Source: Rotaria socialis
Taxonomy: Eukaryota
NCBI GenBank assembly: GCA_905331485.1
Contig: CAJNYT010000051.1
Span: 407,310-471,309 of the forward strand
Direction of reading: 5' to 3'
Length of the DNA stretch: 64,000 nucleotides
In this document: positions 19,660-60,823 of the stretch, one piece after another
How the letters are laid out: each line of letters starts with the position of its first letter
Position numbering within the stretch: the stretch's first letter is position 1
The notes under the pieces: model-generated
The model's input: only the letters and a program-made list of their open reading frames with translations
Told to the model about the DNA's origin: nothing
The model's database searches: none
Position numbers and translations under genes: made by a program

Positions 19660-20671
19660 TTTATCTTCTTTACTAAATTGAAAAAATATGTTTTATTTGA
19701 TCTACGTAGTATTCAATTTTATTCTGTAATATTAGCTAGAATACTTTTTTTCTCTCAACAAATTGAAATAAATGTAGTATTATAATAATGAAATTATATG
19801 TCGCGAAAAGAGGCGTATACTCTTAATGAAAGAAATATTAAAACCATCGATCAAATCTAACGGCATTAATGAATTAGACTTATCTTCTTATAATAAAAAA
19901 ATGCATTATATCTGTTGAGAGTACTTGCCGTACATACAATTGCAATTTCTACAAGAAGGATGTGGGTGTGAGTTATACGAATACTCAGGTGTCTAAACCC
20001 ACAGCCACCGTCACGCCCAACTTTGTACTATTTGGAAACCTTTCTGAAAAGGTGCCTAGACCAAGCTCGTATATAAAAAAGTTTCAAGGGAAAAAATTGC
20101 GATACAACTGTGCATTTAATTCAAAAAACATTTTCTTTAGAAGCGAATCGTTTTATTTTTTGCTTCTCCATCATGCCGACAAGTCAAAGCTTGCATTAAC
20201 CAATGCATCACCCCACCTATTAAAAAAGAGACAACTAGTAATAAAAGGTAACAGTAGACATCCATGCTACGACTCATAACCTGTATGGTTCGACTGAAAA
20301 AAGTGAATTACTCACCTACAGCGAATGATGATGCATTAATATCGACATTGGTCTAAATAAAAAAAAAAAACACTAGACTCATAAAAGATCAGGCGTGATA
20401 CTTACTGTTGGTGCTTCTTTACCATTATTTAATTCATTCAACGATTATTGCTATAACGAGAATAATAAGAAAAGATATTTTTATTCGAAATGGAAGAAAT
20501 GCTTCTTACGGAAATCGTGAGAATACTACGAGCTAAATGATTGCTATCGGGTTGCGCCGACAACTCTTTGGATAGCTAAAAAGGATGAAAATTAATATGG
20601 ATTGAAGAAAATATTGAATACTTGAAATACCTCAGCTCTCTGTTGTATGAACACGTTCTCATGTAATAAAA

Positions 20672-21135: not shown

Positions 21136-21235
21136 ATATTCATTGGTATGGTCCATCAAGAAGAAATACTAAAGATAAATAGATTAAAAACCGTAATCTA
21201 ATATAGCACCTAATTAAATACCAAGTGTTTTCTCT

Positions 21236-40162: not shown

Positions 40163-40234
40163 GGGCGTGGGTGTGAGTGTACCAGTGCGATTATGGACAA
40201 ATGGCCATCCTCGTTGCCCACGCACACACATACA
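40163..40234. repeat. TG/CA-rich palindrome (gggcgtgggtgtgagtgt ... cccacgcacacacataca), a member of a recurring motif family in this window
   Basis: Inverted GT-rich and CA-rich blocks separated by about 36 bp. The same architecture is seen at 50109-50188 and 51309-51361. Confidence 0.6.
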
Positions 40235-43001: not shown

Positions 43002-43894
43002 ATTACATTCGTATTCTACAGTTGCGACTGTGTTTTGAAACATAATTGAAATCTAAGATTGAATAAGTAGAAGATGATTTAATACTGATATCAACAGCAA
43101 TCAGGACTCTTTGCTCGGACATTGACAATCTTTTCTCTCAAAATGTAACTATTGAGATCTTTATGATGATATTAAAATCTAAAACATTGAAAGAAGCTAT
43201 TACAGTTTATATAAGAAGTGTTTTAGAAATTCGAAGTATTCTTTTTTTTGTGAATTTAAGTTTGAAAACTTTCACGGTTTCACAAAATAAACAACATCTT
43301 TTGTTTACCTAATTTCATTTTTACCTCATTATGACATATTCGTTCATTCATTTATTGTAGATTTATTATTATATTATAAACATCTATATACCACTAGCTT
43401 TTTAAACAACCTCAACGCTTGAGCTGATCTACGAGCAACTCATTCTAGAAATGATTGCATTTCCATAGGATTAATGTACATATATTAAGAAAATAATTTT
43501 GACACAATAATTTCATTTTTTCTTCAGCGTTTTTTTCTTTAAATTTAACTTAATATGCCATTGAAAAATATTTCAAACCTTATAGAACTTTCTTTAAAAC
43601 ATGTTAACTCAAAAAACAAATGGAGAACAGATATTGATAGCTTGTAGATTAGCTGAAGCGTATAGGAAAGATAGGTCGATATAAGACGTAGCTCTCATTA
43701 ATACAGTTCATCAGATCAAAAGGAAGTAAGACTATCGGGTATCTAAAATTGGTCATCCGTTGACAGTTGAAACGTGTAAGTTAGCGACTAATTCACCATC
43801 TCGAATCAGGTCAAACTGTCATGTCTATACACTATATATCTTCCTTTTAGAGTGTATCTATCCAATCTTTTATCCTTGCTCGTCGCATTTAGCA

Positions 43895-45076
43895 ATGAAA
43901 TGGCTCTATTTTATCCTATTATTAATGGTGGCTATGCTTGTTTGTTTTGCGAAAAATGAACAGCAAACAGTGATATCTGAAATATATTCACTTGATGGCG
44001 ACTTCGACAAGATTCGGGCATCTGAACACATACAATTCGAATTGACTCACGTCAATAGTGAACCGAGTGTCATCATCGAAACGGAACAATGGTTGCATAC
44101 AGGCCAATATATAACTGTCACAACAAGACCGAATGATTGTTTGTATCCATGATTTGAAGAATACTGTCAGCTTTTACTCATAGCGTCCCATTTCCTTTAT
44201 GAATGTTAAGAAGAAGCACTTGATCTATTCAAACATGAAACGGGTTTTTTGAATATATTTCTATATGAAGAAAAAGATAGTTGAGCAAAGAGAAATATTG
44301 ATTTAATAGATTTCTTGAGCAGATTTGTTAGTTCAGTCTCATCGCAATGTGTTGCAAGTAAAGAAAAACTTTTATTTTTACCTTTTATTCTGAAGACACT
44401 TTATTGAAAAAAAAAAGAATTATTTCAAATTTGTTTGGCAGATCTTGATATCAAATTGGCGAGCGGCACTAATTATCCAGCAATCAAAGTGTATGTTAAT
44501 TACCGCAAAGCTCTCCTTAGTTTGGAAATAGATGGAATGTCGTCAATGAGATCAAGAAACGTCATTTTTAGTAATCCTTCATCGCTTTTGAATATTGCAC
44601 ATTCTGGAGCTGGCAGCGCAATACTCAAACTACAACACGGTTCTAATATTAATGTTGCCATATCTGGTACAGGCCAACTCTCTTTGTCCGGTCGAGTTCA
44701 AGGGAATGGACGATTGAGCGTCTCAGGTACTGCGCACTTGGATGCAATCGAGTGTCCAATGAATATTGCGACTGCTGAAGTGGCTGGATCTGGATCAGCT
44801 TCTGTTTATGGTGTAAAAGGAGTTCATGCCACCGTGAGTGGAGTTGGTAACATTTGCTATCGAGGACCTTTGCTTAGTCAAGTGATAAGTGGTCTTGGCT
44901 CGATCAAAGAGTGTATTGTTGAAGGGACACCTGCAGAACCTCAACAAACAGCTACAGAACCTCAACAAACATCTACAGAACCCCAAAATTCATCATCGCA
45001 AAGCGACAAAATCATGGATAGAAATCAACGATTATTAGTGATTCTTGCTACTACAGTTTTCTTTCTCTTCTTCTAA
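43895..45076 (+). CDS. Secreted, GPI-anchor-like protein with a Gly/Ser-rich beta-solenoid region resembling the bacterial DUF2807 (putative adhesin head, GIN) fold; 2 exons
   Basis: Exon 1 about 43895-44138: signal peptide MKWLYFILLLMVAMLVCFA, then NEQQTVISEIYSLDGDFDKIRASEH.... Candidate donor gtttgt at 44139 and acceptor tttggcag at 44441. Exon 2 44442-45076: ...AHSGAGSAILKLQHGSNINVAISGTGQLSLSGRVQGNGRLSVSGTAHLDAIE...VAGSGSASVYGVKGVHATVSGVGNICYRGPL..., followed by Pro/Thr/Gln repeats (TPAEPQQTATEPQQTSTEPQ) and a hydrophobic C-terminal tail (LLVILATTVFFLFF), stop TAA 45074-45076. Confidence 0.55.
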
Positions 45077-48000
45077 TTAATCATTAATTGACACTGTTGC
45101 TTTTCTTTTCAATTCATAATCGATGATCCTATAAAGTATGCCTTTCCCTCAAGAAAATCTTCTTACGCCGATTTCGATAACATAATATTCGTTTCTTAGA
45201 CAACAACAACAGCATGAGATATAAGAATAAGACTTGTTTTAATAGTATCATAGAGTTATACGGCTAGATGATGGATAGGTGAAACGAGCACACTCGCATC
45301 CTTTTTTCTATCAGATTTGCCAACATAACTACAACCTGGAAAAGAAAGCTTGCCCAAGTGACATCATAACCAAATGATAACGGTTCTTCTCAAAAAGATA
45401 ATCAGATAGATCTCTCTTATATTCAACTATATAAATAGAGGAAATATCTATTTCATAAACATTTAAGAACTATTCATTTTGTCCACGCCAATAAATACAA
45501 GGTAAGATATCATTTGATTGTTGAAAACCGAGTCACTTAGGCATACATATATTTCTTCAATTTAATAATGAAACAGCAAAGGCAGGCAACCTGCACACTG
45601 GATTTTTGTTTTTACATTTAATATCTTCTTTTTCACCTTATGGATTTTTTCATCTAAGAACGATAGGGTTGAATGTAAATCACATCTTCAACAATAATTG
45701 TTTTCAAAAGCAACCGTTGTTAGGGAGCAAAAGTTATCGTAAAATGAAATGAGTGTGTGAATTCATTAGTAAATTGATAGTGAACTGCTGCATAGGTTTA
45801 TCGTACTATTTTTAATCCCAAGTCTAGAATATGATCGGCATATGTGAAACCAATGATCTTTTCACTTTGATTGGATTTTATGACCTTTTAATGATATTGG
45901 AGCTGAATTAATTTTTTCATGCCAAGATAAATAAAGTCCAATATCATTATGAAAATCTAAATGACGACGTGATAAATTATTTTTCGTATTATTAATTTCT
46001 GTTGATGACCATCTGTCAAGACCAACAACCCACTCAGGTCTATGAGCAAAACAGGAAGAATATTTCAATGAACTATTTGATGATTCAATTAAACGTGTTG
46101 TTAATGATCGATCAATTGATAGACAACAATAATGAGATGAATATGAACATTCTTCAAATTTCGACAAATCCATCTTTTCAATTTTTTTAGTTTTATTAAC
46201 AACAAAAAAACATTTCTTTTCTTTTTGATTGAACTTTTTAATAGAACTATTGGAGTAATGCTTTTCACCATAATAAGAGCAAAGATGTATTCACACTAAC
46301 AATATGAGTTTTATGCATCACAACATTTTTTTTAATAAGAATAAACATTAATCAAAGTGATCTCTTAAAAATATTTCACAATAATAAGAAAAGAAAGATT
46401 ATTTAGAATTAGGTAAATTGTAAACAGAACAACGTTCAATTAAATTGTTCATTAACACAATTGGCAATAAACAACATTTATGAATTCTTTTTAAAAAAAA
46501 ACCATCATCGATTCACATTCAATGTCAAAACCATTAGAACTATTTGTTTATTTATTTAATTTATTCAAGTGTAAGTGGCCTTGTAGGGCTTTAAATTTAA
46601 ACATTTAACATGTCAACTGTATGTGGAACAACAATAGATTGATTTCGTTAGAAAATTTATTCTTCTAAAACAGATTTGTTTACAATATTAATTTATAATT
46701 AAGTTTAAAGAAAACAAAATGTAGAATTTTGTTTTTTTTTGTTCGACAGAATTAATAGAAATCTTTCAAAATTATTTTCGATCATTTTAAAACTGATTAA
46801 GAATTTTTTTTGAAAAGAATTCATAAGATTTTATTCTAAATAATTTCAATTTTATTTTTTTTTTAGTTTCATATTTTAATAAAATAACAGTTTGTTTTTT
46901 GTGTAAAGGTTACTATTTATTTTTTATTTATAAGCGTTCGACGATTTTCTTTACTACTATCGTTGTTCAATTCTGCATCAGTTGTTTCAGTTGTTGATAG
47001 ATCTCCTAAAATGATATTAAAACAATGAATGTTATTTATTTCGATGCGAAAATGTTTTTATCGCTTTTTTAGATTTTAAAATTTCAATTCATTTTTCAAT
47101 TAGAGAAAATCTCAATATATTGTTTAACAAGACTTAATGTTATTATTTAATAAAACACAATGAATAATAGTGCTAAAGATTCTGAATTCAAAACAAAATG
47201 AGTTAACAGAAATTGATTCTGGTTTAAACATATTTAAAGTGTAGAATTTTAAAGAGATATTAACGAATATTAATATTATGTAAAAAGTTGTAAGAAAATG
47301 GTTCATAACAATGGTCTATTTGATTTTATTAATGTAAAAACATCTGATTTCAAGATTTCAACCAGAGAAAAATCGCTTCAAGTAAATCTTTCTTTTCAAA
47401 TATTTATTTCTAAAAACTACTCAATAAAAGTTTTTCGATAACAGTGCATTATCTATATTGAAGAAAAGTTCTGCATGAACTACTATCCGTAACAGTTATA
47501 GGACTCTATTACAATGCTTTCGCTATTTCTAAGTGTTTGTTGAGCTCAAGTAGATTGCTACGCTGCAGTTTTGAATGAGACCAATATCTTATCTTTGACG
47601 CTTTAGTTCACTGATAATAAGTGATAACACTCGATACTTTTCTTTAATCCTTTCCGACCAGCTACTAGAAGACCGGTAGAAAACAAATATTTTCGGGCGA
47701 ATTCTTAGTTCCGTTATCGGGGAGATGCTAAAAGTGTGGTCGTTGGTACAAAAAAAGCTACACGTTACCGAACGGTCGAGTGTGGCCTACAAGCAAAATC
47801 CCAACATGTCAATTTTTTGAATTCACTGCCTAATCCATCTGAGTAACTCAATAGATCATACATCCATAGGAGAAAATTAATCGCTAATTGTTTCTTCGAT
47901 TGATAGTTAAGACACGAGAAAAACGCAGAATTTCTATTCCGACCCTTTTTGGGGGGATCCCAAACCGACCCCTCCCTGTATTCAGTGAAAGGTTATATTT

Positions 48001-48279
48001 TTCTTGTACGTTTATGGATTTACTCATAAATGTATTGGCGTAATTATCAATGTGCTAAAGAATTAAATATGATGAGTACAGATCAGCCCTGCACCAAATG
48101 TTAACTCAATATTGCCAAATGGCTACATCCGGCTGGAAAGGGTTAAGATGAACTCAATCAAAGCTGTCCCTTCTAAAATAGTATAATTGTTTTATCAATT
48201 CAATATGTACTAATCGAACATCCATTTTTTTCTGTAGTAAATCGTCAAGATCCTAGATTTCCTACTCCTTAAAATTGCC

Positions 48280-48519
48280 TTATCGAAAACCTTGTGATAA
48301 CATACCTGATCGTTTGTTACGAGCAGCGGCGAATTCTTTTTCCAATATTTTAATCATAGTTATTGTGCTTGCTTTTAATCCTTTTCGTGAATCCTGATTG
48401 TCAGCATCAACAACGTAAAATTTAATACCGCCCAGGACGATCATTCCGACCGCCGGAACGATCATCTTAACAGGACTGAAGCGTCTATAAAAATGGTATA
48501 ATAAGGCGTTAATTTGCAC
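48280..48519 (-). CDS. Candidate terminal coding exon of an unidentified gene
   Basis: 79-aa ORF (..GIKFYVVDADNQDSRKGLKASTITMIKILEKEFAAARNKRS) with an upstream tttcag-type acceptor context. No domain assigned. Confidence 0.2.
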   Translation of the reverse strand: MQINALLYHFYRRFSPVKMIVPAVGMIVLGGIKFYVVDADNQDSRKGLKASTITMIKILEKEFAAARNKRSGMLSQGFR

Positions 48520-48670
48520 CTCGTTTCGCCGTAATCCGTCAGCTCGTTTTACGGACCGTTTTTCCGCTAGAAAACGGCCATCGTTTTTAACAAAATATTC
48601 GTCGTTTTCTGAGCTGACGGAAAACGGTGTCGTTTTTCAACGTTTTTTACGTCTTTTACGGCCATTTATG
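48480..48670. repeat. ACGG/CGTTTT-rich repeat related to 22200-22460
   Basis: cgttttacggaccgtttttccgctagaaaacggccatcgtttttaac...gacggaaaacggtgtcgtttttcaacg. Confidence 0.5.
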
Positions 48671-48820
48671 CACCGTTTTCTTGGACCTGGGTGGTTTCTC
48701 GTACACTTGGAAAAATAGTGCTGCTCATTTCAACTATTTCTCCTAATGACATATTCATCAATACACGTTGATTCACAATAGCCAAATCATCACATAAAAA
48801 TGTTGCAAACTCCTTGGTAT

Positions 48821-49117
48821 CCCAGGTCGAACAATCCGGCCTGGAAACGGCCGCTTCCGGGTAGTTTCGTTGATTTTGTGGAAGCAGTATTCCGGTTGGA
48901 AATTTGTCGCATTTTTTCCGGTGGTTTACGATTAATTCCTGCCGGAAAGCACCGGAACTTGGCAGGAATTCGTCGGAAAAGTCCGGCCGTATTTTTGACC
49001 GGAATACTGCTTCCATGTTCCAGCAATTTTCTGTGTTTTCCTGCAGGGTATGGTGCCTTTTCCGCATATTCCCTGGAGTATCTTACGGGATCCGGTGGCC
49101 GGAATGTTCGACCTGGG
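48821..49117 (+). mobile_element. MITE-like foldback element, copy 2 (about 297 bp), with a perfect 13-bp TIR CCCAGGTCGAACA / TGTTCGACCTGGG
   Basis: Direct-orientation homolog of 21236-21500. Internal palindrome gtggaagcagtattccggttgg / accggaatactgcttccatg. The overlapping ORFs on both strands (48666-49192) are artefacts. Confidence 0.8.
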
Positions 49118-50108
49118 ATACTCCTTTTCTGCATATGCAAAGAATTGTTGCGGATTCATAATAGCTATAAGTTAAAAATCGAAGCAAAATAAATAATGAT
49201 CACAAGCAGAAAAAAAACATACTGAAGAATATTTGACCGAACGACAAAATGAACAATGTAATTATGATATTGACACAATAAAGAACACAAGTTTTCGATT
49301 TAGTAATTGATTTCAGTGGACAATTTGCTCACACTCGCAAATATATGTGTAATGTGTGTACACATATACCTATTTCCATATGACCGGTCGTATTTTGTCC
49401 TTTCTTTTCTTTTCGTTCAGTAAGAAAAAGAGACCAAGTATGGCGCCATAGTACGATGGCTATACATTTCTAACATGATATTGGCAAGATAAAAGTGAAA
49501 CGATATCGAATGAGAGATTTTCTTCAATTCCTCAATGGTAAAATTACCTTTTAAACAAAAATGTGTTTATTCAATAGACATTTTTCAATAATAAAACTAG
49601 GGGATGAGAAGTTATTGTTAATTAGTAACAATAATAATAATTTTCTCGAAGAATCCGGCTCGCAGCTTTTCTTGATTATACAAGGTGTATCATAATGATA
49701 AGACCCTCTATTGACTTTTGAGAAAAATAAAAATTTCATTAACTAAAGAACGTTTCATTTCCAATTCAATGGCATATCTATCAGTGTCTAGTAGTAGTCT
49801 ATCATGTATCATATTTGCTTCAATTTGACCAATTAACGTCCATGAAGAAATTGAAAAATTTGAGTTTGAATTGCCTGATAATTATAAGACCGGCCTTTAT
49901 CACAATATGTGAATGCTAAATTCACCCTATCTTTACCAGCTCAAATGACCCTTTGAACTTTCTATTCGGAAGAGGAAATAGTTAGCTACACGTTGAAAAT
50001 ACGCTAGATGGAAAAAGCTAAGTTCAACTTTTCTATCGTTTAAGAAATTAAATTCAATGTCAAAACTACCACTATGTAATTCGAGAAAAGTAAATTTTCT
50101 GTTCCTTA

Positions 50109-50188
50109 GTGTGGGGTGTGGGTGTAGGGTGTAGGTGTGGGTAGCGGTGCACAGACACAATATCAGCATTCACATCCCACACCCGTAG
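50109..50188. repeat. TG/CA-rich palindrome (gtgtggggtgtgggtgtagggtgtaggtgtgggtag ... cacatcccacaccc), overlapping the apparent 5' end of the GTPase fragment ORF
   Basis: TG1-3-like tract followed about 25 bp later by its CA-rich complement. Confidence 0.7.
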
Positions 50189-50877
50189 TTTCTCTGAATA
50201 GTATTATGAAGAATGTCAATAATGTTCTACAATACGGAAAACAAATGCAACATGGTACTAGCATACCTGTCATATGTGTACTCAGTAAAATCGATGAGTA
50301 TTTCCAAGGCCAAGCGCCTAATTGTGAAGACGATGTCAAACAACTGGAAGAATATACTGAAAGAGCTTTAACGTTGGTAAATAAGTACTTGATTGATCCA
50401 GCTGTCCAATGTATTCCCATATCAACAAGATGCAATTATGGTGTTGACCAACTTCGGCTGAGTATCAATGCTCAATCACCACTGAATGCTCAAATCATTG
50501 ACAAAAATCTTGATTACATTAGCCGATGTCGACTATCAATAGCCAATAAAATTATAGGGGCTTTTTCTACAGCTTCTGCAGCAGCATCGTTTCTACCTCT
50601 TGCGAACATCGTCATTGTAACTTTCTTAAAAGAATGGATGTATCGAATGTTGGCTTGTTTTTCAATCGACCCAAATCGAACCTCGGATACGTTCAAAGCG
50701 GTGCATCGTATGCAACAAACTGCTAGTGTAGCTATTCGTGTTGGTGCACTCTTCATTGGAGGTGTACTTCAATTAAGCATTGTGGGCTACTTTATTGGCA
50801 CGAGTATATGTGTAGTTACAGCCGCAACATCAACAGCTGCTCTCGGTTGGGCATCCTATTTTTACTTTGTTGACTAG
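50137..50877 (+). pseudogene. 3' portion (or terminal exon) of a TRAFAC-class GTPase gene (GTPase C): G4-like LSKID, C-terminal transmembrane anchor. No G1/G3 motifs are present in the ORF
   Basis: Translation ...IPVICVLSKIDEYFQ...CIPISTRCNYGVDQLRLSI... ends with hydrophobic TM segments (LPLANIVIVTFL; GALFIGGVLQLSIVGYFIGTSICVVTAATSTAALGW), stop at 50875-50877. The upstream region is a TG-rich repeat rather than a P-loop exon. It could be a genuine last exon whose 5' exons lie outside a recognisable range. Confidence 0.45.
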
Positions 50878-51250
50878 ATAGAAGTTTGTCGTTTCTACGC
50901 AAACACCATTACCAGAAGGCATTCTATGAAACTGAATAAATCTAGAGAGAATGAGTATTGAAAACAGGATTTTTTCGTTCTTTCAACAGTTTATTTTGCT
51001 CTCTTAACTGTAACGCGTTGTTTTTTGAATGTTCTAAATAAAGACTTCATTTCGATTCAATGAATATTAAATTTGCTACTTTTCAATCATAATTTTTCCT
51101 GAAGTACCTGCCTGATTCCTTTTTAGTAAATAATCGTTACATGAATGGCAACAAATATCTGGATGTATAGATCGAGTGAGCGTTTATCAGTCTATTCATA
51201 ATTATCATTTTTAACGGAATTTTTTTTCTAGAAAAAAAAGCATTTCTATG
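50761..51250 (+). repeat. Direct repeat copy 1 (490 bp): last about 40 codons plus the 3' UTR of GTPase C
   Basis: About 93% identical to 56999-57466. Both end at ...aaaagcatttctatg. Confidence 0.9.
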
Positions 51251-51361
51251 TGGGTGGGTGTGGGTGTGTCATAGATGTCATAATACCGTTACACTGAGTA
51301 TTGTGATGAGTGTGGGTGTGTGGGGGTATATAAGCAAGACACACACCCACACCCTCACCCT
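51251..51361. repeat. TG-rich block (tgggtgggtgtgggtgtg), then a TG/CA palindrome (gagtgtgggtgtgtggggg tatataagcaagaca cacacccacaccctcaccctc), immediately 3' of direct-repeat copy 1
   Basis: Read directly. It marks the left boundary of the putative inserted cassette. Confidence 0.8.
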
Positions 51362-51529
51362 CAAGAAAAAAAAGTTTTCCTATTTTTCTATTCTAACAGG
51401 AAAGTGCATATGACAATTATAATTCGAATTCGAAAAAAACCTTTTTCCTAGTTTTCCTATTTTCCTGTTGTCGAATGGGAGTGCTAGTTGAATTTTTATT
51501 TATTTTCGAAGTAACTTGATGCACTCCCA

Positions 51530-51910
51530 TGTTGCGAATACCGGATCAATTTTTGCGGTAAACCGCGGTATTTATCCGTTCTGCGGTAATGGGAGCCGGT
51601 AGCCGGACCGGTAAAACCGCGGCAAACCGGCGGTTTTTTGCGCATGTTTATCACATGTAAAAGTAAAAACAAAGGATCTTTAAAATAGTTTAATTGATGA
51701 TTTGGAAGACTTTTTCTGTCAAAATTTATAGATGAACCGGTTAACCGCCTTTTTTAGCGGTAACCGCGGTATTAATCAAAACCGGCGATTTACCGCGGTA
51801 AATGCCAGCTCATTTTTTGTGGTAAACCGCGGTATTTATCCGTTCTGCGGTAATGAGAGCCGGTAACCGGACCGGTAAAACCGCGGTTAACCGCCGATTT
51901 TCATGCGGTT
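51530..51910 (-). repeat. CCGCGG-rich dispersed repeat, copy 2 (reverse complement of 20672-21110)
   Basis: ccgcggtatttatccgttctgcggtaatgagagccggtaaccggaccggtaaaaccgcggttaaccgccgattttcatgcggt is the reverse complement of 20672-20755. The AT spacer is also conserved. Confidence 0.85.
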
Positions 51911-51997
51911 TTTATTACATGGGCTTGAAGCTTCATTTATATTCGAATTCGAATTAGGTATATCATGGCTTTGATACAGATATTAGCCTCATCTAAG

Positions 51998-52020
51998 CGC
52001 ACACACCCGAACCCACATCG
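51998..52020. repeat. Solo CA-rich block (cgcacacacccgaacccacatcg)
   Basis: Same motif class as 51341-51361. Confidence 0.5.
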
Positions 52021-52553
52021 ACACTCTTGTTTTTAAATCTTAGCTGTCTACAAGTTAAATATGAATATATTTGCTTAATTTGGTCAAACAATCGAATGAA
52101 GAACATCAATAGTGGCAAGAATTGATTTATGTAAAGGATTATCTCTGTTTTTCATGAGTGCCTTTTCTATATAAGAATATTCTATACTTGATATCAAGCT
52201 TGTCTTTTAAACTTGATCGTTTTTAACTTGTGGAAAAAGGTTTGCCTTTTCGAAGAAAAATAATTTCACAGAAAGAATTTTTCAGATTTCATTTTTATCT
52301 CCTACATATAATTATTCACTGTCAAGTAACATATATGCAGATTTGCCGGAAAATCTGATAGAATTCCAGTACATATTATACCAATATAATTCTAAAGCTC
52401 TATCAAGATAAAGTCATCTTAAACTGGATTTTTTTTAGAACGGTACGAGCTACCATTTTCATGAACGTAGGTATAATGAGAAGAATTAAACATTTACAAC
52501 CGCAAATTACTTTAATAACAAGACAAAAATCAATTTGTATTCGAAAAATATAT

Positions 52554-54464
52554 TCATGTATTGTTTCCGTATAAGTAACTCACGACTTGGTTCTGGCCTC
52601 GTTTATTTGAAAGGATCTTCACAGTAGCATCGTAATAGCGTTTCATATCTATGTTTTCGTCCATTACACTAATAGTTTTATTGAATTTTGTGAGTAAATC
52701 TTGAGTTCGACCAATAATGTCATAGTTTTTTTTTATTGAAAGTAATGCAGTGACTTTTGCTTTTAATTGTGTTAACGATGAGTTTATTTCTGTTTCCAAC
52801 TTTTGCTGTCTGGCAATCAAGTGTTGTGCTTTAGTTTTTAACATAAATTCTTGTTGTTCAGCATAAGTATAATGTGATCGAGTCTCATTATCTGGTAATG
52901 TTACTCGGACTTTTGCTGTTTGTTGTCGATACATAGGATTATGGGGATTATACCCATCATCATGATCATAATGAGCCTTACTGTATTTCTGATCATGTGG
53001 TCGTTCTCTTGAATATGTGTCATGTCTCTCATCACGATCATGTGATGCTGAAATCTTATGATCTTTACCACAGGTTTCAGCAGTCGCTGATGATGAAGGA
53101 TATCCAGCAGTTCGAGCAGAATATGGTCTTGTAGTTGAATGTGTGCTGTTGTGAGAAGAATCATGATGAAATGAAGTATCGGTATTCTGTTTTAATGATG
53201 ATGAACACGTAGAAGAACGGCTTTCTTGAGGATCATGGTGATGATGATGATTGGATGAAGGATTTTTATACTCTGGTGGCTTGCAATGCTGACCAGTGTC
53301 ATTATCAGTATGCGCCGAAGGATTATTTTTATGCATGTAGTCATCATTCGTTGAATATGAACCGTGTGGATCTCGATTAACAACAAAAGATCTCGAGGTG
53401 TCTTTTTCACAACTCCTTCCTGACGAAGAGGCGCTTTGTGCTGATGCTGGTCGACGATTTTCAATAAATTTCGATGGATTTTCTGATTTTGCGGGTAGTA
53501 GTGATCGTGATTGATGTTGTGGTGATTGATCCCAACGCATAACTGTGATTTCTTGATCTTTTTCCCATTTTTCATTACATTGCATTGTATGGTGCGCATT
53601 GCTAATGCCATCTTCTGTTGCAGTTTGGTCTTTATATATATTAATTAGACTGATAATTTTGTTGATAGCCTCAATAATACAATTTTCAATTAAAGCTATT
53701 TTAATACCACCAATTTCGAATACTTGTGTTGAAACGCTATTAAATTGTAACAATTTTCGCACTAAAGTTTCAGTTATGTCCAGAGTGTCTTCAAAATCTT
53801 GTTCAAACCGACGTATTGCTTTTGATGATTGATTTTTGGGGTTCCATCGAAATAAGCTATTTTGCAAGTGAAATACCCTGCTATCATCTATTTTAAAATG
53901 ATCATGTAATATTGCTGGATCTAAATTAACACTAAGTTTATCACAATTTGTCAAAACTGCAACACAATTGTTTAATAAATCATTTGGCCATATTTGATAC
54001 AATGAATGTAAAACGTTTTTGAATGACACACCGAGACGTGGAAGAGCACCGTTTATAACAATAATAATTCCATTTAGGAAAGGTAATTGTTTTAGAGTCT
54101 TTTCAATGCAGTCCAAATTTCTTTCATCGACATCGAAGCCGTTTGTGTCATTGAATCCTGGTGTATCAATTAGTTCGAGATAAAAATCTGCTGTTCGAAA
54201 TGAATACGTCATGCATTTCTGCGTCTGACTTTGTATTTGATCATTAATATCACGTTCACTGTGCTTATTTCGGTATTTCTTATCAAGACAGTCCAACCAA
54301 TTTGCACATGGTATAGATAATTTAACTTGTGGACTAGTACAAAAAATATTTTTTGGATCTTTTGTACCATAACTCATATTATACAAAAAGTTAATTAATG
54401 AAGATTTTCCGACACCAGCATCGCCAAGTAAAATAAAACGTTTCGGCTCGCGCGCTGAGGTCAT
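52554..54464 (-). CDS. Intronless TRAFAC-class P-loop GTPase A (636 aa): N-terminal G-domain, then a His/Ser/Thr-rich disordered region and a C-terminal coiled coil; GIMAP/AIG1-Toc34-septin-like
   Basis: Full-length ORF with G1 LLGDAGVGKSSLINFL, G3 LIDTPGFNDTNG, hydrophobic IIIVINGAL and G4-like VLTNCDKL. HHHHHDPQ and S/T/H-rich low complexity in the middle. Heptad-like C-terminus (LIARQQKLETEINSSLTQLKAKVTALLSIKKNYD). Coordinates taken from the ORF track. Confidence 0.8.
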   Translation of the reverse strand: MTSAREPKRFILLGDAGVGKSSLINFLYNMSYGTKDPKNIFCTSPQVKLSIPCANWLDCLDKKYRNKHSERDINDQIQSQTQKCMTYSFRTADFYLELIDTPGFNDTNGFDVDERNLDCIEKTLKQLPFLNGIIIVINGALPRLGVSFKNVLHSLYQIWPNDLLNNCVAVLTNCDKLSVNLDPAILHDHFKIDDSRVFHLQNSLFRWNPKNQSSKAIRRFEQDFEDTLDITETLVRKLLQFNSVSTQVFEIGGIKIALIENCIIEAINKIISLINIYKDQTATEDGISNAHHTMQCNEKWEKDQEITVMRWDQSPQHQSRSLLPAKSENPSKFIENRRPASAQSASSSGRSCEKDTSRSFVVNRDPHGSYSTNDDYMHKNNPSAHTDNDTGQHCKPPEYKNPSSNHHHHHDPQESRSSTCSSSLKQNTDTSFHHDSSHNSTHSTTRPYSARTAGYPSSSATAETCGKDHKISASHDRDERHDTYSRERPHDQKYSKAHYDHDDGYNPHNPMYRQQTAKVRVTLPDNETRSHYTYAEQQEFMLKTKAQHLIARQQKLETEINSSLTQLKAKVTALLSIKKNYDIIGRTQDLLTKFNKTISVMDENIDMKRYYDATVKILSNKRGQNQVVSYLYGNNT

Positions 54465-54922
54465 GTTTCTTATTTTTTAAGCAGAATGTAATATGAAATG
54501 AGTTGTCTATACTATTGCAAAGTATCGAGCTTATATATTCAGAATGCAGTTGACTTTTTCCTACTCGTTGATGTATCTTATCAAGACTCTTGAGAATATT
54601 TACTAAGAAGAACAAAGTTTATTGCTCTTGGAATATATTGATGCAAATTTTCAGCATATAACATACAGAAGCAAGGAAGTACATGCCTATCTCAACCGTT
54701 CGAGAGACTTCAATGGTCTATGTTGGAACAAATAAGAAGATATGGCAATAAAGATTACAAGCGAATTTTTGTCATTGCAGTAAGTCAAATCAAACAAATT
54801 TACATTTTTTTTCCAAGTTTTTGCTTTGTTCGAAATTACATGTCTACATGTATATATAAATTACTTCAAAAAAAATACATCATTATACATCAAAAATTAA
54901 AAATTAAAAGCCAAAAGCGAAG
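54465..54922. promoter_or_regulatory. About 458-bp divergent intergenic region between GTPase A (-) and GTPase B (+); presumed bidirectional promoter
   Basis: Head-to-head gene arrangement. No element verified. Confidence 0.4.
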
Positions 54923-56416
54923 ATGTCTTTTTCCAGTATTACCGTGTTCTCCTGCTCTACCGTCCGAAAGGAGTCGAATCCAAATATTATCATTCTATTC
55001 ATTGGTGAATCAGGCTCAGGCAAATCAACTTGTATAAATTATTTTGCCAATTATTTTACCAATTCTTCATTTGATGAAGAAGATCATTATTCAAATATGA
55101 AAATTGTTATACCAAACAGTCTATTTCCTGAGCCGAATTTTCCTGAGGGACACCATCGACATTGTGAGCGTAATGTACATGATACTAGTATGAGTCAAAC
55201 GCAAGAATGTACTGCTTATGATTTTCGATGGAATGGGCAATGTATCAAAATTATAGATACACCTGGTTTTAATGATACAGATTCCCATAAAGATGATCAA
55301 AATATTCAGAAAATCTTGACACAAGCTTCACAAGTTCCATTCATTAATGCTATTGTAATCACGATCAATGGCACAAATGTTCGTTTATCAACATCCATCA
55401 AAACAACATTGAGTCAACTGCGTAGTTCATTACCAGATAAAATTTTTAAAAATTTATTTTTTATCTTCACAAATTGTACTGAAGAAACTAGAAACTTTGA
55501 TTTATCCCTGATTTCTGAATTCAAACCATCAGAAGAACGAACATTTCATATGCAAAATGCATTGTTTTCCATCAAAGATAAGTCGTTACTTCAAAACACA
55601 AAATCAGTACGAAAAATGGCACAAACATGGAAGGAGTCGGTAGAAACAATGGGCGAAATAATGCAGGAAATAAATCAAACATCGGCTACATCGGTACAAG
55701 TATTTAATGATATGAGAATTCGACGAGAACAACTGATTGTACACAAGGAGAATTTGATTGAAAAACAAAAGTCTTTGCTAAATATCATGAATACATTGCA
55801 AATTGAAAAAGAGCGTTTGAAAAATGCCTCTGAAGATCAACAAGCAAACAAAAATTTCACGGAATCAAAACGTATCAGCGTTATTGATATAGAAAAAAAA
55901 TCATATTATAGTACAATTTGTCTGAGACATGGTAAAGTACAAGTATGCCATGAGAACTGTTCGTTATCATATGAGCCCAAGTTGAATTTGCATCATTTTC
56001 AACAATGTGCTGCTGCAAATGGATCAAATTGCCGACATTGTGCGTGTGGAATGAATGACCATTTACATTCTTACGAAATTCCAGTATCACGACTAAAAAC
56101 GGTTGAAGAAATCATTCAAAGTAAAAAGGCTGCTTTTGAACAAGCCAATAGAAATATAAAAAGTAGTAGCGATAGAGTTGTTCTCTTAGAGCGTGTTCGA
56201 GATGCTTGTCAGAATGAGGTTAATGATATTAAAGATGGCTTGTTGACGACAATAAAGGAGTTGAAACAAATTTGTTCACACTTCAATTTTCACGATGAAA
56301 TGAATGGTACAATACAAAAGTTAAGAAAAGAAGCTAAAATTGCAACAGACTTTAAAGCAAAGCAAGAATTCACTCGAACAGCCAATGCCATTGAACATTT
56401 TATCAATCGAATTTAA
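54923..56416 (+). CDS. Intronless TRAFAC-class P-loop GTPase B (497 aa), a paralog of A: G-domain, Cys/His-rich segment, C-terminal coiled coil
   Basis: G1 LFIGESGSGKSTCINYF, G3 IIDTPGFNDTDS, VITINGTNVRL and G4-like FIFTNCTEE. Shared blocks with A (SQTQ(K/E)C(M/T)(T/A)Y.FR, ERTFHMQNALF / SRVFHLQNSLF). CxxC/His cluster CHENCS...CRHCACG. Coiled-coil tail. Coordinates taken from the ORF track. Confidence 0.8.
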   Translation: MSFSSITVFSCSTVRKESNPNIIILFIGESGSGKSTCINYFANYFTNSSFDEEDHYSNMKIVIPNSLFPEPNFPEGHHRHCERNVHDTSMSQTQECTAYDFRWNGQCIKIIDTPGFNDTDSHKDDQNIQKILTQASQVPFINAIVITINGTNVRLSTSIKTTLSQLRSSLPDKIFKNLFFIFTNCTEETRNFDLSLISEFKPSEERTFHMQNALFSIKDKSLLQNTKSVRKMAQTWKESVETMGEIMQEINQTSATSVQVFNDMRIRREQLIVHKENLIEKQKSLLNIMNTLQIEKERLKNASEDQQANKNFTESKRISVIDIEKKSYYSTICLRHGKVQVCHENCSLSYEPKLNLHHFQQCAAANGSNCRHCACGMNDHLHSYEIPVSRLKTVEEIIQSKKAAFEQANRNIKSSSDRVVLLERVRDACQNEVNDIKDGLLTTIKELKQICSHFNFHDEMNGTIQKLRKEAKIATDFKAKQEFTRTANAIEHFINRI

Positions 56417-56959
56417 TAAGCAATTACAGTGACGACCATTTATTCTAGAACTGTGACATTTCGTACCAGAATCTAGCAACTAGTACGAACAGTGATAAAG
56501 CTGTATAGGGATTGTATGCGCTTTAAAAATTGTTTAAAATATATATACTTCATTCTTACTCTTAATAGTTTTAATTAATTTTAATTTAGCCTATTTACGT
56601 ATATCAACAAGGTTATTGAAAGTCAAATAACATGAAGATGTGAGCCAATACAGGTTGGTGCTTGTACTGGCGTCACATTATGGGCAGAAAAAAGGAACTA
56701 GGAGTAATTCTTTCAATGACTGCAGCTAATATTTTAATTTTTGCTTTGTTACAAATAGCTGACACATCATACTGATTGTCTGTATTTACTCAGCTCCTCC
56801 TAATTGGCAGGTTGCTAGAAAATCAACTTTCCGACTTTTGAAAACTATGCATTTGACACAACACAATATGGTTGTATCATTATGATGTTTTTCAGTCAAA
56901 TGAGACAAGAATTTCTATCATGCAGTTAGAATACTACGCGGATTTAACTTGAGGATGTG

Positions 56960-57113
56960 AGTATCGAGTTTTCTCCTATGTGCGCCCACACTCATCCAGG
57001 TGCACTTCAATTAAGCATTGTGGGCTACTTTATTGGCGCTGGTATATGTGTAGCTACAGCCGCAACATCAACAGCTGCTCTCGGTTGGGCATCCTATTTT
57101 TACTTTATTGACT
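56960..57113 (+). pseudogene. Orphan 3' remnant of a GTPase-C-like gene (TM-anchor tail only), within direct-repeat copy 2
   Basis: The translation ..HPGALQLSIVGYFIGAGICVATAATSTAALGWASYFYFID-stop is about 90% identical to the C-terminus of 50137-50877. It is preceded by a CA-rich block (gtgcgcccacactcatcc) and no upstream exons. Confidence 0.6.
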
Positions 57114-57466
57114 AGATAGAAGTATGCTGTTTCTACGCAAATACCATTACTAGAAGACATTCTATGAAACTGAATAAATCTAGAGAGAATGAGTATTGAA
57201 AACAGGATTTTTTTGTTCTCTTAACTCTAACGCGTTATTTTTTCAATGTTCTAAATAAAGACTTTTCATTTCGATTCAATGAATATTAAATTTGTTATTT
57301 TTCAATCATAATTTTTCCTGAAGTTCCTGCCTGATTCCTTTTTAGTAAATAATCGTTACATAAATGCCAACAAATATCTGAATGTATAGATCGAGCGAGC
57401 GTTTATCAGTCTATTCATTATCATCATTTTTAACGGTTTTTTTTTCTAGAAAAAAGCATTTCTATG
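56999..57466 (+). repeat. Direct repeat copy 2 (468 bp) of 50761-51250
   Basis: Collinear alignment throughout. It is followed by unrelated sequence (ttaacaag), whereas copy 1 is followed by a TG-rich block. Confidence 0.9.
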
Positions 57467-58280
57467 TTAACAAGTTTTAAAAACCAATAAACATCTTCAT
57501 CCCTATATAAGTACTGGAACATAAATAGTATTCATACATGATTCTGACCCTCAAAAGAATTTATTTATTCATTCTATTTCAGTCAGTTCGAAAAAAAAAG
57601 ATTTAATGCAAAACTGTACGATCATGTTTATGTCTTGCTAATGAAGATAAGACAAGTCATGATTCTGACAACGATAATATATTCCTTAAATGTCATTCGC
57701 TGTACAATTCATTCCTAATAATAGTTAAGTTGATGATTGCAATCGACTGAAGTCAAGTTTAAGTAGAAGAACAAATTAATTATGTATATCAAAAAGAAAC
57801 TCTTTCATCTTCTAGCAACATGCAACACTAACAATAGTAGGATAAATCCTCATGGAATTCAAGTTCATGAACACATATAATTAGTTTTTCCATAGAAGAA
57901 AAAACAAAAAAAAATTAATATGAATCTTTCTTTTTCTCGACATACATTTATTTATAATAAATTTAAGGTAAAAAAATATTAGCCACCCGATGTTTTCTAA
58001 TTGTATGTGACACAACTTGCATCACAAATATATGATTATATCATATTTAATTATACGTCCGACGGCCAACGTCTGTTTTCTAAAAAAATCAAAACAATTC
58101 CTCTGTTGATCAAATTTGACTTGGCAATCATTTTGTTTTCTTTCTTTTCCGATGCTACTGATGAATAAAAGATCTTCTCAACATATTTCATTTGTCATGC
58201 AATAAACAATGCGTGCTACAGTACGATAATAATTGTCCTAGAGTATGTTGCCTTTTTTTCTTCTTTAGACAATCATTATC

Positions 58281-58616
58281 ATGAATAATCACACAAAGTC
58301 ACTGCCACCTTTCGGATTATTTGTTGCGATGGGCTATTTACCGTCAATATTTAGTCTTCTACTTATATTAATTCTTATACTTATTACGTTATTTATACTG
58401 TTTATGAAACACAAAACTAGTCGTGCATTTGACGAAAATGAAATACGAAGTGATGACAGTGCAAGTGCCAATGAACTGAAATCACTGGAATTTCACCGAT
58501 CAAAACAATATTCGTCAACGTCAAATAATCAACAACAAACATCGATGACTTCATTTCAAACCGATATTGATGAACAAACTACCCGTTCAACGATTGATTT
58601 ACTTTCTGCCAAATAA
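58281..58616 (+). CDS. Possible small single-pass membrane protein ORF (111 aa)
   Basis: ATG-initiated ORF with a strongly hydrophobic segment (LPSIFSLLLILILILITLFILFM) and a Ser/Thr/Gln-rich tail. No homology recognised. Confidence 0.25.
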   Translation: MNNHTKSLPPFGLFVAMGYLPSIFSLLLILILILITLFILFMKHKTSRAFDENEIRSDDSASANELKSLEFHRSKQYSSTSNNQQQTSMTSFQTDIDEQTTRSTIDLLSAK

Positions 58617-60682: not shown

Positions 60683-60772
60683 CTATAGAAAAAAAAACAA
60701 AATAATATTTCTATTCAGAACCATAACATGTTTCAAATATACCTATGCGAAATGTTAATGTCAACAGATTAC

Positions 60773-60823
60773 CTCGTGAAAGAATTAGAGCTTTCTCACT
60801 GAAGACAACAAATTGAGATTTTT
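60773..60823 (-). CDS. Kir channel, 51-nt microexon (…EKSQFVVFSEKALILSR…)
   Basis: Acceptor ctatttttag, donor cacgag|gtaatc. Phase 1 is maintained into exon 3. It aligns to the Kir segment ETLVFSHNAVIAMRDG. Confidence 0.55.

What the first reader, a model, noticed from the sequence alone, without database searches (positions are those of the whole stretch)
50100..57470. Cassette-like locus: two divergent intronless GTPase genes bounded by TG/CA-rich palindromes and a 470-490-bp direct duplication of the neighbouring GTPase gene's 3' end
In a genome whose genes are otherwise cut into many short exons, two paralogous P-loop GTPase genes (1911 and 1494 nt) are completely intronless. They sit head-to-head. 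The segment carrying them (about 51251-56998) begins with tgggtgggtgtgggtgtg and ends with the complementary gtgcgcccacactcatcc. It also contains an inverted copy of a dispersed CCGCGG-rich repeat. It is flanked by direct repeats (50761-51250 and 56999-57466) that duplicate the TM-anchor tail and 3' UTR of a third, apparently truncated GTPase gene. This looks like an insertion or gene-conversion product that moved a GTPase pair into, or duplicated it within, a GTPase gene array. The outcome is a rapidly evolving, possibly immune-type (GIMAP-like) GTPase cluster. Homologous segments elsewhere would show whether it is a mobile unit
Basis: partly seen in the sequence, partly recalled or inferred. 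Interest (0 to 1): 0.8.

Follow-up and report, generated by a model that had tools for sequence, protein, structure and literature searches.

The report
Telomere-repeat scars around a relocated GTPase pair
In the bdelloid rotifer Rotaria socialis, an ancient pair of GIMAP-like GTPase genes was spliced into the middle of another gene, and every splice junction carries a short tract of telomere repeats, so this looks like chromosome breakage, telomerase capping and rejoining rather than a transposon.

Summary
The sequence features are real. There are two intronless head-to-head GTPase ORFs, a 470-490 bp direct repeat (93-94% identical), TG/CA blocks and a dispersed CCGCGG-rich repeat.

The window is Rotaria socialis. 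The TG/CA blocks are the bdelloid telomere repeat (TGTGGG)n. Each tract abuts unique sequence with the polarity expected if telomerase extended a broken 3' end.

In R. magnacalcarata, R. sordida and R. sp. Silwood-1 the third GTPase gene (C) is full-length. Where downstream sequence is available (not R. sordida), it lies directly beside the 111-aa gene, with no A/B pair. The R. socialis arrangement is therefore a derived insertion into gene C. The flanking repeat is duplicated target sequence and is absent from one R. socialis haplotype.

The A/B pair is ancient. It is intronless and divergent in Adineta, Didymodactylos and Rotaria, yet always has different neighbours. In A. steineri, and at an R. 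socialis paralogue, it is bracketed on both sides by head-to-head telomere tracts.

Across about 230 kb from six species I counted 21 G-then-C tract pairs against 1 C-then-G.

Best reading: breakage, neotelomere capping and end joining with fragment capture. It is not a transposon, a retrocopy or a tandem array. This is a new example of a known bdelloid phenomenon, with a possibly under-described polarity rule.

The parts
50106..50142 (+). T1-G: G-strand telomeric tract (TGTGGG-like), the cap on the right end of upstream segment 49783-50105
   Evidence: Identical in L001 and L003.
50171..50186 (-). T1-C: C-strand telomeric tract that directly abuts the 5'-truncation point of gene C
   Evidence: Homology to R. 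magnacalcarata gene C starts at 50187.
50187..50877 (+). Gene C fragment: the 3' ~60% of an MMR_HSR1-type GTPase with a hydrophobic tail. The G1-G3 motifs are lost, so it is a probable pseudogene.
   Evidence: Matches L004 from 10531 onwards (the 50187-51068 HSP is 90% identical). It is 82% identical to P0073 over the last ~229 aa of 388.
50760..51251 (+). Left copy of the direct repeat (last 39 codons of C plus 3' flank). Absent from haplotypes L001/L002.
51247..51270 (+). T2-G1: G-strand tract that abuts the end of the left repeat copy (…CTATGT|GGGTGGGTGTGGG)
51307..51329 (+). T2-G2: second G-strand tract, following a 36-nt unique mini-fragment
51335..51363 (-). T2-C: C-strand tract, head-to-head with T2-G2. 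It is the cap on the left end of segment S2.
51364..51989 (.). S2: ~230-bp filler fragment of unknown origin, carrying a later MITE insertion
51526..51921 (.). CCGCGG-rich ~396-bp MITE-like dispersed repeat. It is an insertion polymorphism, absent in L001/L002.
   Evidence: 95% identical inverted copy at 20660-21055. The empty site is visible in L001.
51990..52023 (-). T3: degenerate C-strand telomeric tract, the cap on the left end of the A/B fragment
52024..56977 (.). S3: 4.95-kb fragment carrying the GTPase pair. It is absent from this locus in R. magnacalcarata and R. sp. Silwood-1.
52554..54464 (-). GTPase A (636 aa): AIG1-like G domain, a variable low-complexity middle region, and a conserved C-terminal helical region
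54465..54922 (.). Shared divergent intergenic region, presumed to be a bidirectional promoter
   Evidence: The head-to-head layout with a 0.2-0.5 kb spacer is conserved in all species examined. Promoter function is inferred.
54923..56416 (+). GTPase B (497 aa): GIMAP/AIG1-type G domain, coiled coils and a conserved Cys/His-rich module
56978..56997 (-). T4: short C-strand telomere-like tract (reverse complement GGATGAGTGTGGGCGCAC) that abuts the truncation point of the right C copy. It is the weakest of the tracts.
   Evidence: The GGAT/GAG variants recur in other tracts.
56998..57467 (+). Right copy of the direct repeat. This is the in-place 3' end of ancestral gene C and continues into conserved downstream sequence.
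   Evidence: Collinear with L004 from 11104 onward.
58281..58616 (+). 111-aa gene, the synteny anchor that directly follows full-length gene C in other Rotaria species
43647..45873 (+). Segment Y, containing a DUF2807 gene. It lies after X and next to C in R. magnacalcarata but before X in this window.
47504..49782 (+). Segment X. Its order relative to Y is swapped compared with R. magnacalcarata. Its right end is the same base in both species.
19958..20009 (.). Another head-to-head (G then C) telomeric tract pair elsewhere in the window
40163..40228 (.). Another head-to-head (G then C) telomeric tract pair elsewhere in the window

Best explanation
The locus is a compound chromosome-repair scar in the R. 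socialis lineage, not a mobile element.

Ancestral state (shown): one gene, C (an MMR_HSR1-type GTPase with a hydrophobic tail), lay directly upstream of the 111-aa and IRK genes.

Proposed sequence of events (inferred):
1. The region was broken.
2. Telomerase extended the exposed 3' ends with short (TGTGGG)n tracts, forming neotelomeres.
3. The capped ends were later joined to each other and to other capped fragments.

The joined fragments are a 1.06-kb piece of C, a 36-nt piece, a ~0.2-kb piece, and a 4.95-kb piece carrying an ancient, bdelloid-wide, intronless, divergently transcribed pair of GIMAP-like GTPase genes.

The ~490-bp direct repeat is the overlap between two C-derived ends broken at different positions. 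These presumably came from two copies of the locus (sister chromatids or homologues). It is not a target-site duplication.

The 5' ~530 bp of C and its promoter were lost, so C is now a pseudogene fragment. The A/B pair stays intact and probably functional.

Shown directly: identity of the tracts, their polarity, the derived state, the absence of TE hallmarks, and conservation of the pair. Inferred: telomerase action, the order of events, and the two-chromatid origin of the overlap.
For: 1. Organism and repeat identity. B is 99% identical to an R. socialis protein. (TGTGGG)n is the bdelloid telomere repeat (PMC7943196, PMC8494291). An R. sordida contig ends in at least 84 nt of near-perfect (TGTGGG)n.

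2. Enrichment. 18 matches against 0.49 expected.

3. Polarity. At every junction the tract directly abuts unique sequence, with its G strand running 5'->3' away from that sequence. Paired tracts are G-then-C 21 times and C-then-G once in ~230 kb from six species. An earlier count on a 156-kb subset gave 11:0, with 0.03 pairs expected.

4. Derived state. In R. magnacalcarata (L004) and R. sp. Silwood-1 (L010), full-length C is followed directly by the 111-aa gene, with no A/B. R. sordida (L013) also has full-length C. The window lacks L004 9823-10530.

5. Timing. The two repeat copies are sisters (5-7% apart) relative to R. magnacalcarata (11.5-14%).

6. An independent example. In R. magnacalcarata a G-then-C tract pair plus a small repeat replaces ~600 bp of the DUF2807 gene, which is intact in the window.

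7. No hammerhead ribozyme or other Rfam hit in the window, no RT domain among the nine long ORFs scanned, no TIR/TSD pair and no second copy.

8. Precedent. Neotelomeres at deletion breakpoints, persistence of broken chromosomes and repair 'scars' have been reported experimentally in A. vaga (PMC13564844). Short telomeric stretches are a known feature of bdelloid subtelomeric DNA (PMC2861651, PMC6431247).
Against: - The donor site of the A/B fragment was not found. No A or B orthologue appears in the protein database for any other Rotaria species, so a move cannot be told apart from a copy followed by loss.
- Every G-then-C pair has an 11-64 nt non-telomeric spacer. Simple telomere-telomere joining does not require one.
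- T4 is only ~12-16 nt long and weak on its own.
- The junctions around X, Y, 45874-47503 and 49783-50105 carry no telomeric tracts, so at least some of the rearrangement used another route or a different event.
- Haplotype L001 (deletion of 50662-51255, ending exactly at the G tract) could be either ancestral or derived.
- Telomerase involvement is inferred from sequence alone.
Confidence: 0.6

Rival explanations
1. Former chromosome end. Gene C was terminally truncated and healed. DNA pieces (S3, S2, ...) were then added one after another to a shortening telomere, each addition being re-capped, as in the published model of bdelloid subtelomere growth. The end was later internalised by fusion with another capped end.
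For: The same-polarity series of C tracts (T2-C, T3, T4) reads like successive caps on a leftward-growing end. Published descriptions of bdelloid subtelomeres include short telomeric stretches and host genes captured between elements. The R. socialis paralogue locus L021 lies within 5-26 kb of a contig end and has tracts in five consecutive intergenic regions.
Against: Both sides of the break are still linked. X/Y lie on the left and the 111-aa/IRK/WD40 genes on the right, as in R. magnacalcarata, and the locus is internal to an 83-225 kb contig. No Athena/Terminon reverse transcriptase or hammerhead motif was found. This rival differs from the main explanation only in order and timing.
Confidence: 0.2
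2. The G-then-C tract pairs are not repair scars. They are copies of a small palindromic element, or a functional intergenic structure built from telomere-like arms, that inserts between genes. The A/B segment merely lies among them.
For: The G-then-C order is strict, which is also expected for an element with G-rich terminal inverted repeats. A spacer is always present. Density is high in some regions, with five consecutive intergenic regions carrying tracts in L021. T2 folds better than shuffled controls (z = -3.4).
Against: The spacers are unrelated in sequence and vary from 11 to 64 nt. Arm lengths range from 12 to more than 100 nt, and no TSDs are evident. Three of the four tract pairs tested fold no better than shuffles. 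The tracts coincide with deletion and rearrangement junctions rather than clean insertions. Single unpaired tracts also cap truncated sequence (T3, T4).
Confidence: 0.1
3. A genuine mobile cassette. The A/B pair moves as a unit bounded by inverted TG/CA termini and generates a long target duplication.
For: The orthologous pair has entirely different neighbours in R. socialis, A. vaga, A. ricciae, A. steineri and D. carnosus. In A. steineri and at the R. socialis paralogue it is bracketed closely on both sides by telomeric tract pairs.
Against: The termini are ordinary telomere repeats, also found at unrelated sites. No transposase, reverse transcriptase or hammerhead motif was found. No locus holding this A/B pair other than the C locus was recovered from R. 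socialis. The 490-bp 'duplication' is missing from one haplotype. A. ricciae and D. carnosus copies lack flanking tracts.
Confidence: 0.07
4. An ancient conserved three-gene locus, or a tandem GTPase array with an ordinary deletion, or an assembly artefact.
For: All three genes are P-loop GTPases. One assembly (L003) shows an apparent 228-bp duplication within A that contains an N and a frameshift.
Against: C is not detectably related to A or B. Two other Rotaria species lack A/B at this locus. The same junctions occur in the window and in three independent R. socialis assemblies.
Confidence: 0.03

Closest known systems
Interstitial or 'short stretches of' telomeric repeats in bdelloid subtelomeric DNA (Gladyshev & Arkhipova 2007; Arkhipova et al. 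2017, as summarised in PMC6431247 and PMC2861651)
   Same: The same repeat, (TGTGGG)n, occurs as short tracts at the truncated ends of sequences and between captured host genes and TEs, in TE-rich and rearranged regions.
   Different: Here the tracts cap host-gene fragments, not Athena/Terminon copies. No reverse transcriptase or hammerhead motif is present. The locus is internal to large contigs. The tracts mostly occur as head-to-head pairs, whereas the head-to-tail telomeric retroelement arrays described in the literature would be expected to give same-polarity tracts (my inference).
De novo telomere addition (chromosome healing), and the neotelomeres and 'scars' proposed for A. vaga break repair (PMC13564844)
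   Same: Telomeric repeats sit exactly at breakpoints, with the G strand extending the broken 3' end. Broken pieces persist and are later rejoined.
   Different: That work saw the tracts in soft-clipped reads from laboratory lines. This locus would be a fixed, millions-of-years-old natural product. It has both ends capped, foreign-to-the-locus fragments captured, and a gene destroyed.
Head-to-head telomere fusion relics such as human 2q13 (TTAGGG)n-(CCCTAA)n (my own knowledge)
   Same: The same G-then-C inverted arrangement, indicating that two ends met.
   Different: The bdelloid examples are tiny (12-100 nt arms), numerous (about one per 10 kb in the loci examined), and join gene-sized fragments rather than whole chromosomes.
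Penelope pLTR-mediated mobilisation of host genes in A. vaga (PMC3846280)
   Same: A host gene is placed at a new site, framed by direct repeats, with an empty site visible in a comparison sequence.
   Different: That mechanism uses Penelope terminal repeats with hammerhead motifs and an 8-bp TSD. Here the direct repeat is target-gene sequence, no pLTR or hammerhead was found, and the junctions are telomeric.
GIMAP/AIG1 (IAN) and Toc34 paraseptin GTPases
   Same: B passes the Pfam AIG1 threshold. Its predicted G domain best matches GIMAP7/1/2/5 and Toc34. The G1 and G3 (DTPG) motifs are invariant.
   Different: The G4 motif is TNC[T/D] rather than the canonical form. There are long coiled-coil extensions and a Cys/His module. 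The family is organised as a conserved divergent A/B gene pair. Any immune role is untested.

Membership tests
Bdelloid telomeric repeat tracts | Tandem TGTGGG-type hexamers | tested here: met
   18 matches against 0.49 expected. Tract sequences are listed. The repeat is named in PMC7943196 and PMC8494291.
De novo telomere addition / healed break | The tract abuts truncated unique sequence, with the G strand running 5'->3' away from it | tested here: met
   Junctions at 50186/50187, 51250/51251, 51363/51364, 52023/52024 and 56997/56998. Tract pairs are 21 G-then-C against 1 C-then-G.
De novo telomere addition / healed break | The repeats were synthesised by telomerase at the break | not testable with these tools
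   Needs experimental break induction, with or without TERT, plus long-read sequencing.
DNA transposon / MITE-type cassette | Specific terminal inverted repeats plus a short target-site duplication, with multiple copies | tested here: not met
   The termini are generic telomere repeats. The 490-bp flank is target-gene sequence and is missing in L001/L002. No other copy was found in the window or in the fetched loci. Every R. socialis copy of the pair that was traced lies at the C locus.
Athena/Terminon or Penelope-mediated capture | A reverse transcriptase ORF and/or a hammerhead-ribozyme-bearing terminal repeat next to reverse-complement telomeric repeats | tested here: not met
   Rfam gave no hammerhead at the gathering threshold across the window, or at E<=1 in 49500-57600. 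No RT domain was found in the nine long ORFs scanned with Pfam.
Processed retrocopy | Introns lost relative to a parent gene, a poly(A) tail, a single transcription unit | tested here: not met
   Two divergent genes moved together with their intergenic region. Orthologues are intronless in every species where this could be read. No poly(A) tract is present at either end.
Tandem GTPase array / gene conversion among paralogues | The flanking gene C is homologous to A/B | tested here: not met
   C against B gives BLASTP E 0.17. A against B gives E 5e-40.
GIMAP/AIG1 GTPase family | AIG1-type G domain by profile | tested here: met
   This holds for B only: B scores 35.9 bits against a cutoff of 27. 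A scores 25.3 bits, just below the cutoff.
GIMAP/AIG1 GTPase family | GIMAP-like fold of the G domain | tested here: met
   The AlphaFold model has mean pLDDT 79. Top Foldseek PDB hits are GIMAP7, GIMAP1, GIMAP2, GIMAP5 and Toc34, with E from 4e-8 to 1e-5.
GIMAP/AIG1 GTPase family | Immune or stress-induced function | not tested
   No expression data were available. The infection RNA-seq paper PMC11258130 does not mention GTPases.

The most novel reading that the evidence does not exclude
Bdelloid rotifers routinely cap both ends of broken DNA with telomere repeats and later join the capped pieces end to end. This would leave abundant head-to-head (G-then-C) micro-scars that mark the boundaries of gene-sized fragments.

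The same route would repeatedly relocate intact units such as the A/B GTPase pair. That pair is bracketed by such scars in three independent loci and has different neighbours in five species. The route could also be how foreign DNA enters bdelloid chromosomes.

If so, scar maps would be a readable historical record of double-strand-break repair and of gene capture.
Probability: 0.3. Interest if true: 0.75.

Novelty: new member of a known kind. Interest (0 to 1): 0.5.

Why it matters
How bdelloid rotifers reassemble shattered genomes and take up extra DNA is a long-standing question. Laboratory work has only recently suggested that broken ends are temporarily stabilised by neotelomeres.

This locus is a natural, fixed example in which each step can be read from sequence:
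- an ancestral 'empty' state in sister species;
- a destroyed host gene;
- captured fragments, including a functional gene pair;
- telomere tracts of the correct polarity at every junction;
- haplotypes that differ at the scars.

The strict G-then-C rule gives a simple, countable genome-wide signature. It could be tested against structural-variant, synteny-break and horizontal-transfer boundaries.

For annotation, the result warns that 'palindromes plus flanking repeats plus intronless genes' in bdelloids need not mean a transposon.

Tried and rejected
- Transposon or cassette model. I looked for further copies, TIRs and TSDs and found none.
- Athena/Terminon/Penelope involvement. Rfam found no hammerhead and Pfam found no RT in the nine long ORFs scanned. 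The Penelope pLTR/TSD signature described in PMC3846280 is absent.
- Functional hairpin. DNA folding of four tract pairs gave z-scores of -0.4 to -3.4. Only T2 stood out.
- Common spacer motif. The spacers of 21 tract pairs were listed and are unrelated.
- Synteny of A/B neighbours. tblastx among five species found only the pair itself shared.
- Outgroup for the X/Y order. There was no detectable homology in R. sordida or Silwood-1, so the polarity of that swap is unknown.
- Donor locus of A/B. No A or B orthologue from another Rotaria species is in the protein database, and no eukaryote genome search tool was available.
- Exact-protein look-ups of the window's B and of P0124 returned nothing.
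- Silwood-1 assembly differences upstream of C turned out to be scaffold gaps of N.
- The 228-bp 'tandem duplication' in A of L003 contains an N and a frameshift, so it is probably an assembly artefact.
- Gladyshev & Arkhipova 2007 and Arkhipova et al. 2017 are not held in the library. I therefore could not check whether the head-to-head polarity has already been described.
- The sigma-70 promoter scan of the A/B intergenic region is not meaningful for a eukaryote.

Full report
**1. What is in the sequence**

The described features are all present.
- ORF A (52554-54464, minus strand, 636 aa) and ORF B (54923-56416, plus strand, 497 aa) are uninterrupted. They lie head-to-head, 458 bp apart.
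- They are paralogues, 30% identical over 307 aa with E 5e-40.
- The segments 50760-51251 and 56998-57467 are direct repeats at 93-94% identity, with a single 19-nt indel.
- The ORF at 50137-50877 contains the 3' part of a third GTPase gene (C).
- A ~396-bp CCGCGG-rich repeat at 51526-51921 has a 95% identical inverted copy at 20660-21055.

**2. Organism and the TG/CA blocks**

B is 99% identical to a Rotaria socialis protein, and all strong homologues come from bdelloid rotifers. The TG/CA 'palindromes' are the bdelloid telomere repeat (TGTGGG)n. This repeat is named in PMC7943196 and PMC8494291.

The window holds 18 matches to TGTGGGTGTGGG (up to 2 mismatches), against 0.49 expected. An R. 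sordida contig fetched later ends in at least 84 nt of near-perfect repeat.

In the region of interest the tracts are:
- T1: 50106-50142 (G strand) and 50171-50186 (C strand);
- T2: 51247-51270 (G), 51307-51329 (G) and 51335-51363 (C);
- T3: 51990-52023 (C);
- T4: 56978-56997 (C, short).

Each tract directly abuts unique sequence, with its G strand running 5'->3' away from that sequence. This is the polarity expected if telomerase extended a broken 3' end.

**3. Comparison with other species gives the 'empty site'**

In R. magnacalcarata (L004/L005), gene C is full-length at 388 aa as annotated, with one in-frame TGA hidden by an annotated mini-intron. It is followed directly by the 111-aa gene, the IRK channel gene and the TMEM127/WD40 gene. 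These are the same genes that follow the right repeat copy in the window.

Coordinates correspond as follows:
- window 50187-51251 matches L004 10531-11838;
- window 56998 onward matches L004 11104 onward;
- L004 9823-10530 (promoter and 5' ~530 bp of C, including G1-G3) has no counterpart in the window.

The more distant R. sp. Silwood-1 also has full-length C next to the 111-aa gene, and R. sordida has full-length C on a contig that ends soon after the gene. No R. socialis protein covers the 5' part of C.

The R. socialis state is therefore derived. About 5.75 kb was inserted into C, the last ~490 bp of C and its flank were duplicated, and the 5' part of C was lost.

The two repeat copies are each other's closest relatives. 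They are 5-7% apart, and 11.5-14% from R. magnacalcarata, so the event is old.

**4. Haplotypes**

Three other R. socialis assemblies carry the same junctions, so this is not a mis-assembly.
- L003 matches the window. Its apparent 228-bp duplication in A contains an N and a frameshift and is probably an artefact.
- L001/L002 lack 50662-51255, which is the whole left repeat copy. Their C fragment runs straight into the T2 G tract (…TTGTTTT|GGGGTGTGGG). They also lack the MITE at 51526-51921 and carry another ~298-bp MITE at window position 50004.

The 'flanking direct repeat' is therefore not a constant feature of the insertion.

**5. The A/B pair is an ancient two-gene module**

Orthologues of B (66-73% identical) and of A (42-49% identical where most of A aligns) sit head-to-head with a 0.2-0.5 kb spacer in A. 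vaga, A. steineri, A. ricciae and D. carnosus. Both genes are annotated as single exons in the last three. In A. vaga B is a single exon and the A-like gene model is not. Older paralogous pairs occur in R. socialis and A. vaga.

The G1 motif, the DTPG motif and a TNC[T/D] G4-like motif are conserved. B also has a conserved Cys/His module, and A has a hypervariable middle region.

B passes the Pfam AIG1 threshold. Its AlphaFold model (pLDDT 79) best matches GIMAP7/1/2/5 and Toc34. 'GIMAP-like' is therefore supported. An immune role is untested.

C belongs to a different family (MMR_HSR1 with a DUF697-like tail; E 0.17 against B). There is no GTPase array.

**6. The pair moves, and telomere tracts mark the moves**

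Within ±10 kb, nothing except the pair itself is shared among the five species, even within the genus Adineta.
- In A. steineri the pair is bracketed by large head-to-head tract structures: G 6561-6734 then C 6767-7005 on one side, and G 11673-12193 then C 12258-12431 on the other. These lie 90 and 143 bp from the two stop codons.
- An R. socialis paralogous pair (L021) is bracketed in the same way. Five consecutive intergenic regions there carry tracts, beside AIG1-RING and IIGP-type GTPase genes.
- The A. ricciae and D. carnosus copies have no flanking tracts.

**7. A general polarity rule**

Across about 230 kb of non-redundant sequence from six species, I counted adjacent opposite-type tracts. 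They were G-then-C 21 times and C-then-G once, and that single case had a 99-nt gap. An earlier count on a 156-kb subset gave 11 against 0, with 0.03 pairs expected under a Markov model.

Arms range from 12 to more than 100 nt. Spacers are 11-64 nt and unrelated in sequence.

One R. magnacalcarata tract pair, plus a small repeat, replaces ~600 bp of a DUF2807 gene that is intact in R. socialis. That is a deletion with a scar.

**8. Mechanism**

A two-ended break rejoined in this way gives left flank-(TGTGGG)n-filler-(CCCACA)n-right flank. It can never give the reverse order.

In this locus the overlap between the two C-derived ends (L004 11104-11838) cannot come from one broken molecule. It implies two copies of the locus broken at different points.

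The L001 deletion, which ends exactly at the G tract, fits a further break that was healed and then annealed to the existing tract. The alternative polarity, with L001 ancestral, cannot be excluded.

Precedent comes from experimental work in A. vaga, which reports telomeric repeats and Athena fragments at deletion breakpoints, persistence of broken chromosomes and 'scars' (PMC13564844). Short telomeric stretches and captured host genes are also known from bdelloid subtelomeres (PMC2861651, PMC6431247).

Telomerase action, the order of events and the two-chromatid origin are inferences.

**9. Rivals**

- A stepwise 'former chromosome end' history is a close variant and cannot be excluded.
- A palindromic mini-element is disfavoured by the heterogeneous arms and spacers, the lack of TSDs, and the association with deletions.
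- A true mobile cassette is disfavoured because there is no machinery, no additional copy, generic termini and an inconstant flank.
- An array with a deletion, an ancient three-gene locus, and an assembly artefact are all refuted.

**10. Verdict**

The locus is a clear new example of a known bdelloid phenomenon: telomere-repeat-marked rearrangement and capture. The head-to-head polarity rule and the repeated bracketing of one conserved gene pair deserve a genome-wide test. I could not check whether these have already been described, because the two key papers are not held in the library.

Noticed in passing
window 44435-45076 (segment Y, 43647-45873): The ORF has a DUF2807 'auto-transporter adhesin head GIN' domain (E 7e-18), a typically bacterial domain. 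It is a candidate horizontally acquired gene. It is intact in R. socialis, but in R. magnacalcarata it is interrupted by a telomeric tract pair plus a small 'gatctgatc' palindromic repeat (L004 8935-9192).
   Followed up: partly
window 48821-49113 and 21236-21496; L001 5782-6079: A second CCGG-rich MITE-like family of ~290 bp. The two window copies are 88% identical. A third copy, 70% identical and inverted, is inserted at window position 50004 in L001/L002/L003 but not in the window, so it is polymorphic. At 20660-21500 both MITE families lie side by side, ~650 bp from a telomeric tract pair.
   Followed up: partly
window 19958-20009 and 40163-40228: Two further head-to-head (G-then-C) telomeric tract pairs lie far from the GTPase locus. 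I could not check whether they coincide with synteny breaks.
   Followed up: no
window 43647-49782 vs L004 6486-9822: Segments X and Y are in the opposite order in R. socialis and R. magnacalcarata. X ends at the same base in both species. In R. magnacalcarata it is followed by a G-then-C tract pair (L004 7832-7910). To the left of these segments the two species share no homology, so there is a synteny break at window ~43647. The polarity of the swap is unknown.
   Followed up: partly
L021 (R. socialis contig CBCPMN020000305.1, 114842-136326): This paralogous A/B pair sits in a cluster with an AIG1+RING E3-type gene and an IIGP (IRG-like) GTPase gene. Telomeric tracts lie in five consecutive intergenic regions, some within a ~0.5-kb local repeat that starts with 'ttctaaa'.
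   Followed up: partly
L004 10574-10576 (R. magnacalcarata gene C): There is an in-frame TGA in the otherwise full-length C gene, and the annotation skips it with a 54-nt 'intron'. C may already be decaying in this clade.
   Followed up: no
window 50003-51523 vs 51925-64000: Haplotype divergence is uneven. It is 3-9% between R. socialis assemblies across the C fragment, T2 and S2, but only ~0.5% from the A/B fragment rightwards. This suggests loss of heterozygosity or gene conversion on one side of the scars.
   Followed up: no
L013 1-117, 5249-5301, 6196-6259 (R. sordida): Three tract pairs lie within 8 kb upstream of gene C. One has a G arm of at least 84 nt at the contig end, and another lies ~150 bp upstream of C. 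The region upstream of C appears to be a recurrent break site in several Rotaria lineages.
   Followed up: no
proteins P0047, P0048, P0052 (Aedes albopictus / A. aegypti): Outside bdelloids, the closest named full-length homologues of B (25-30% identity over ~95% of the query) are uncharacterised AIG1-type proteins of Aedes mosquitoes. This is an odd, patchy distribution.
   Followed up: no
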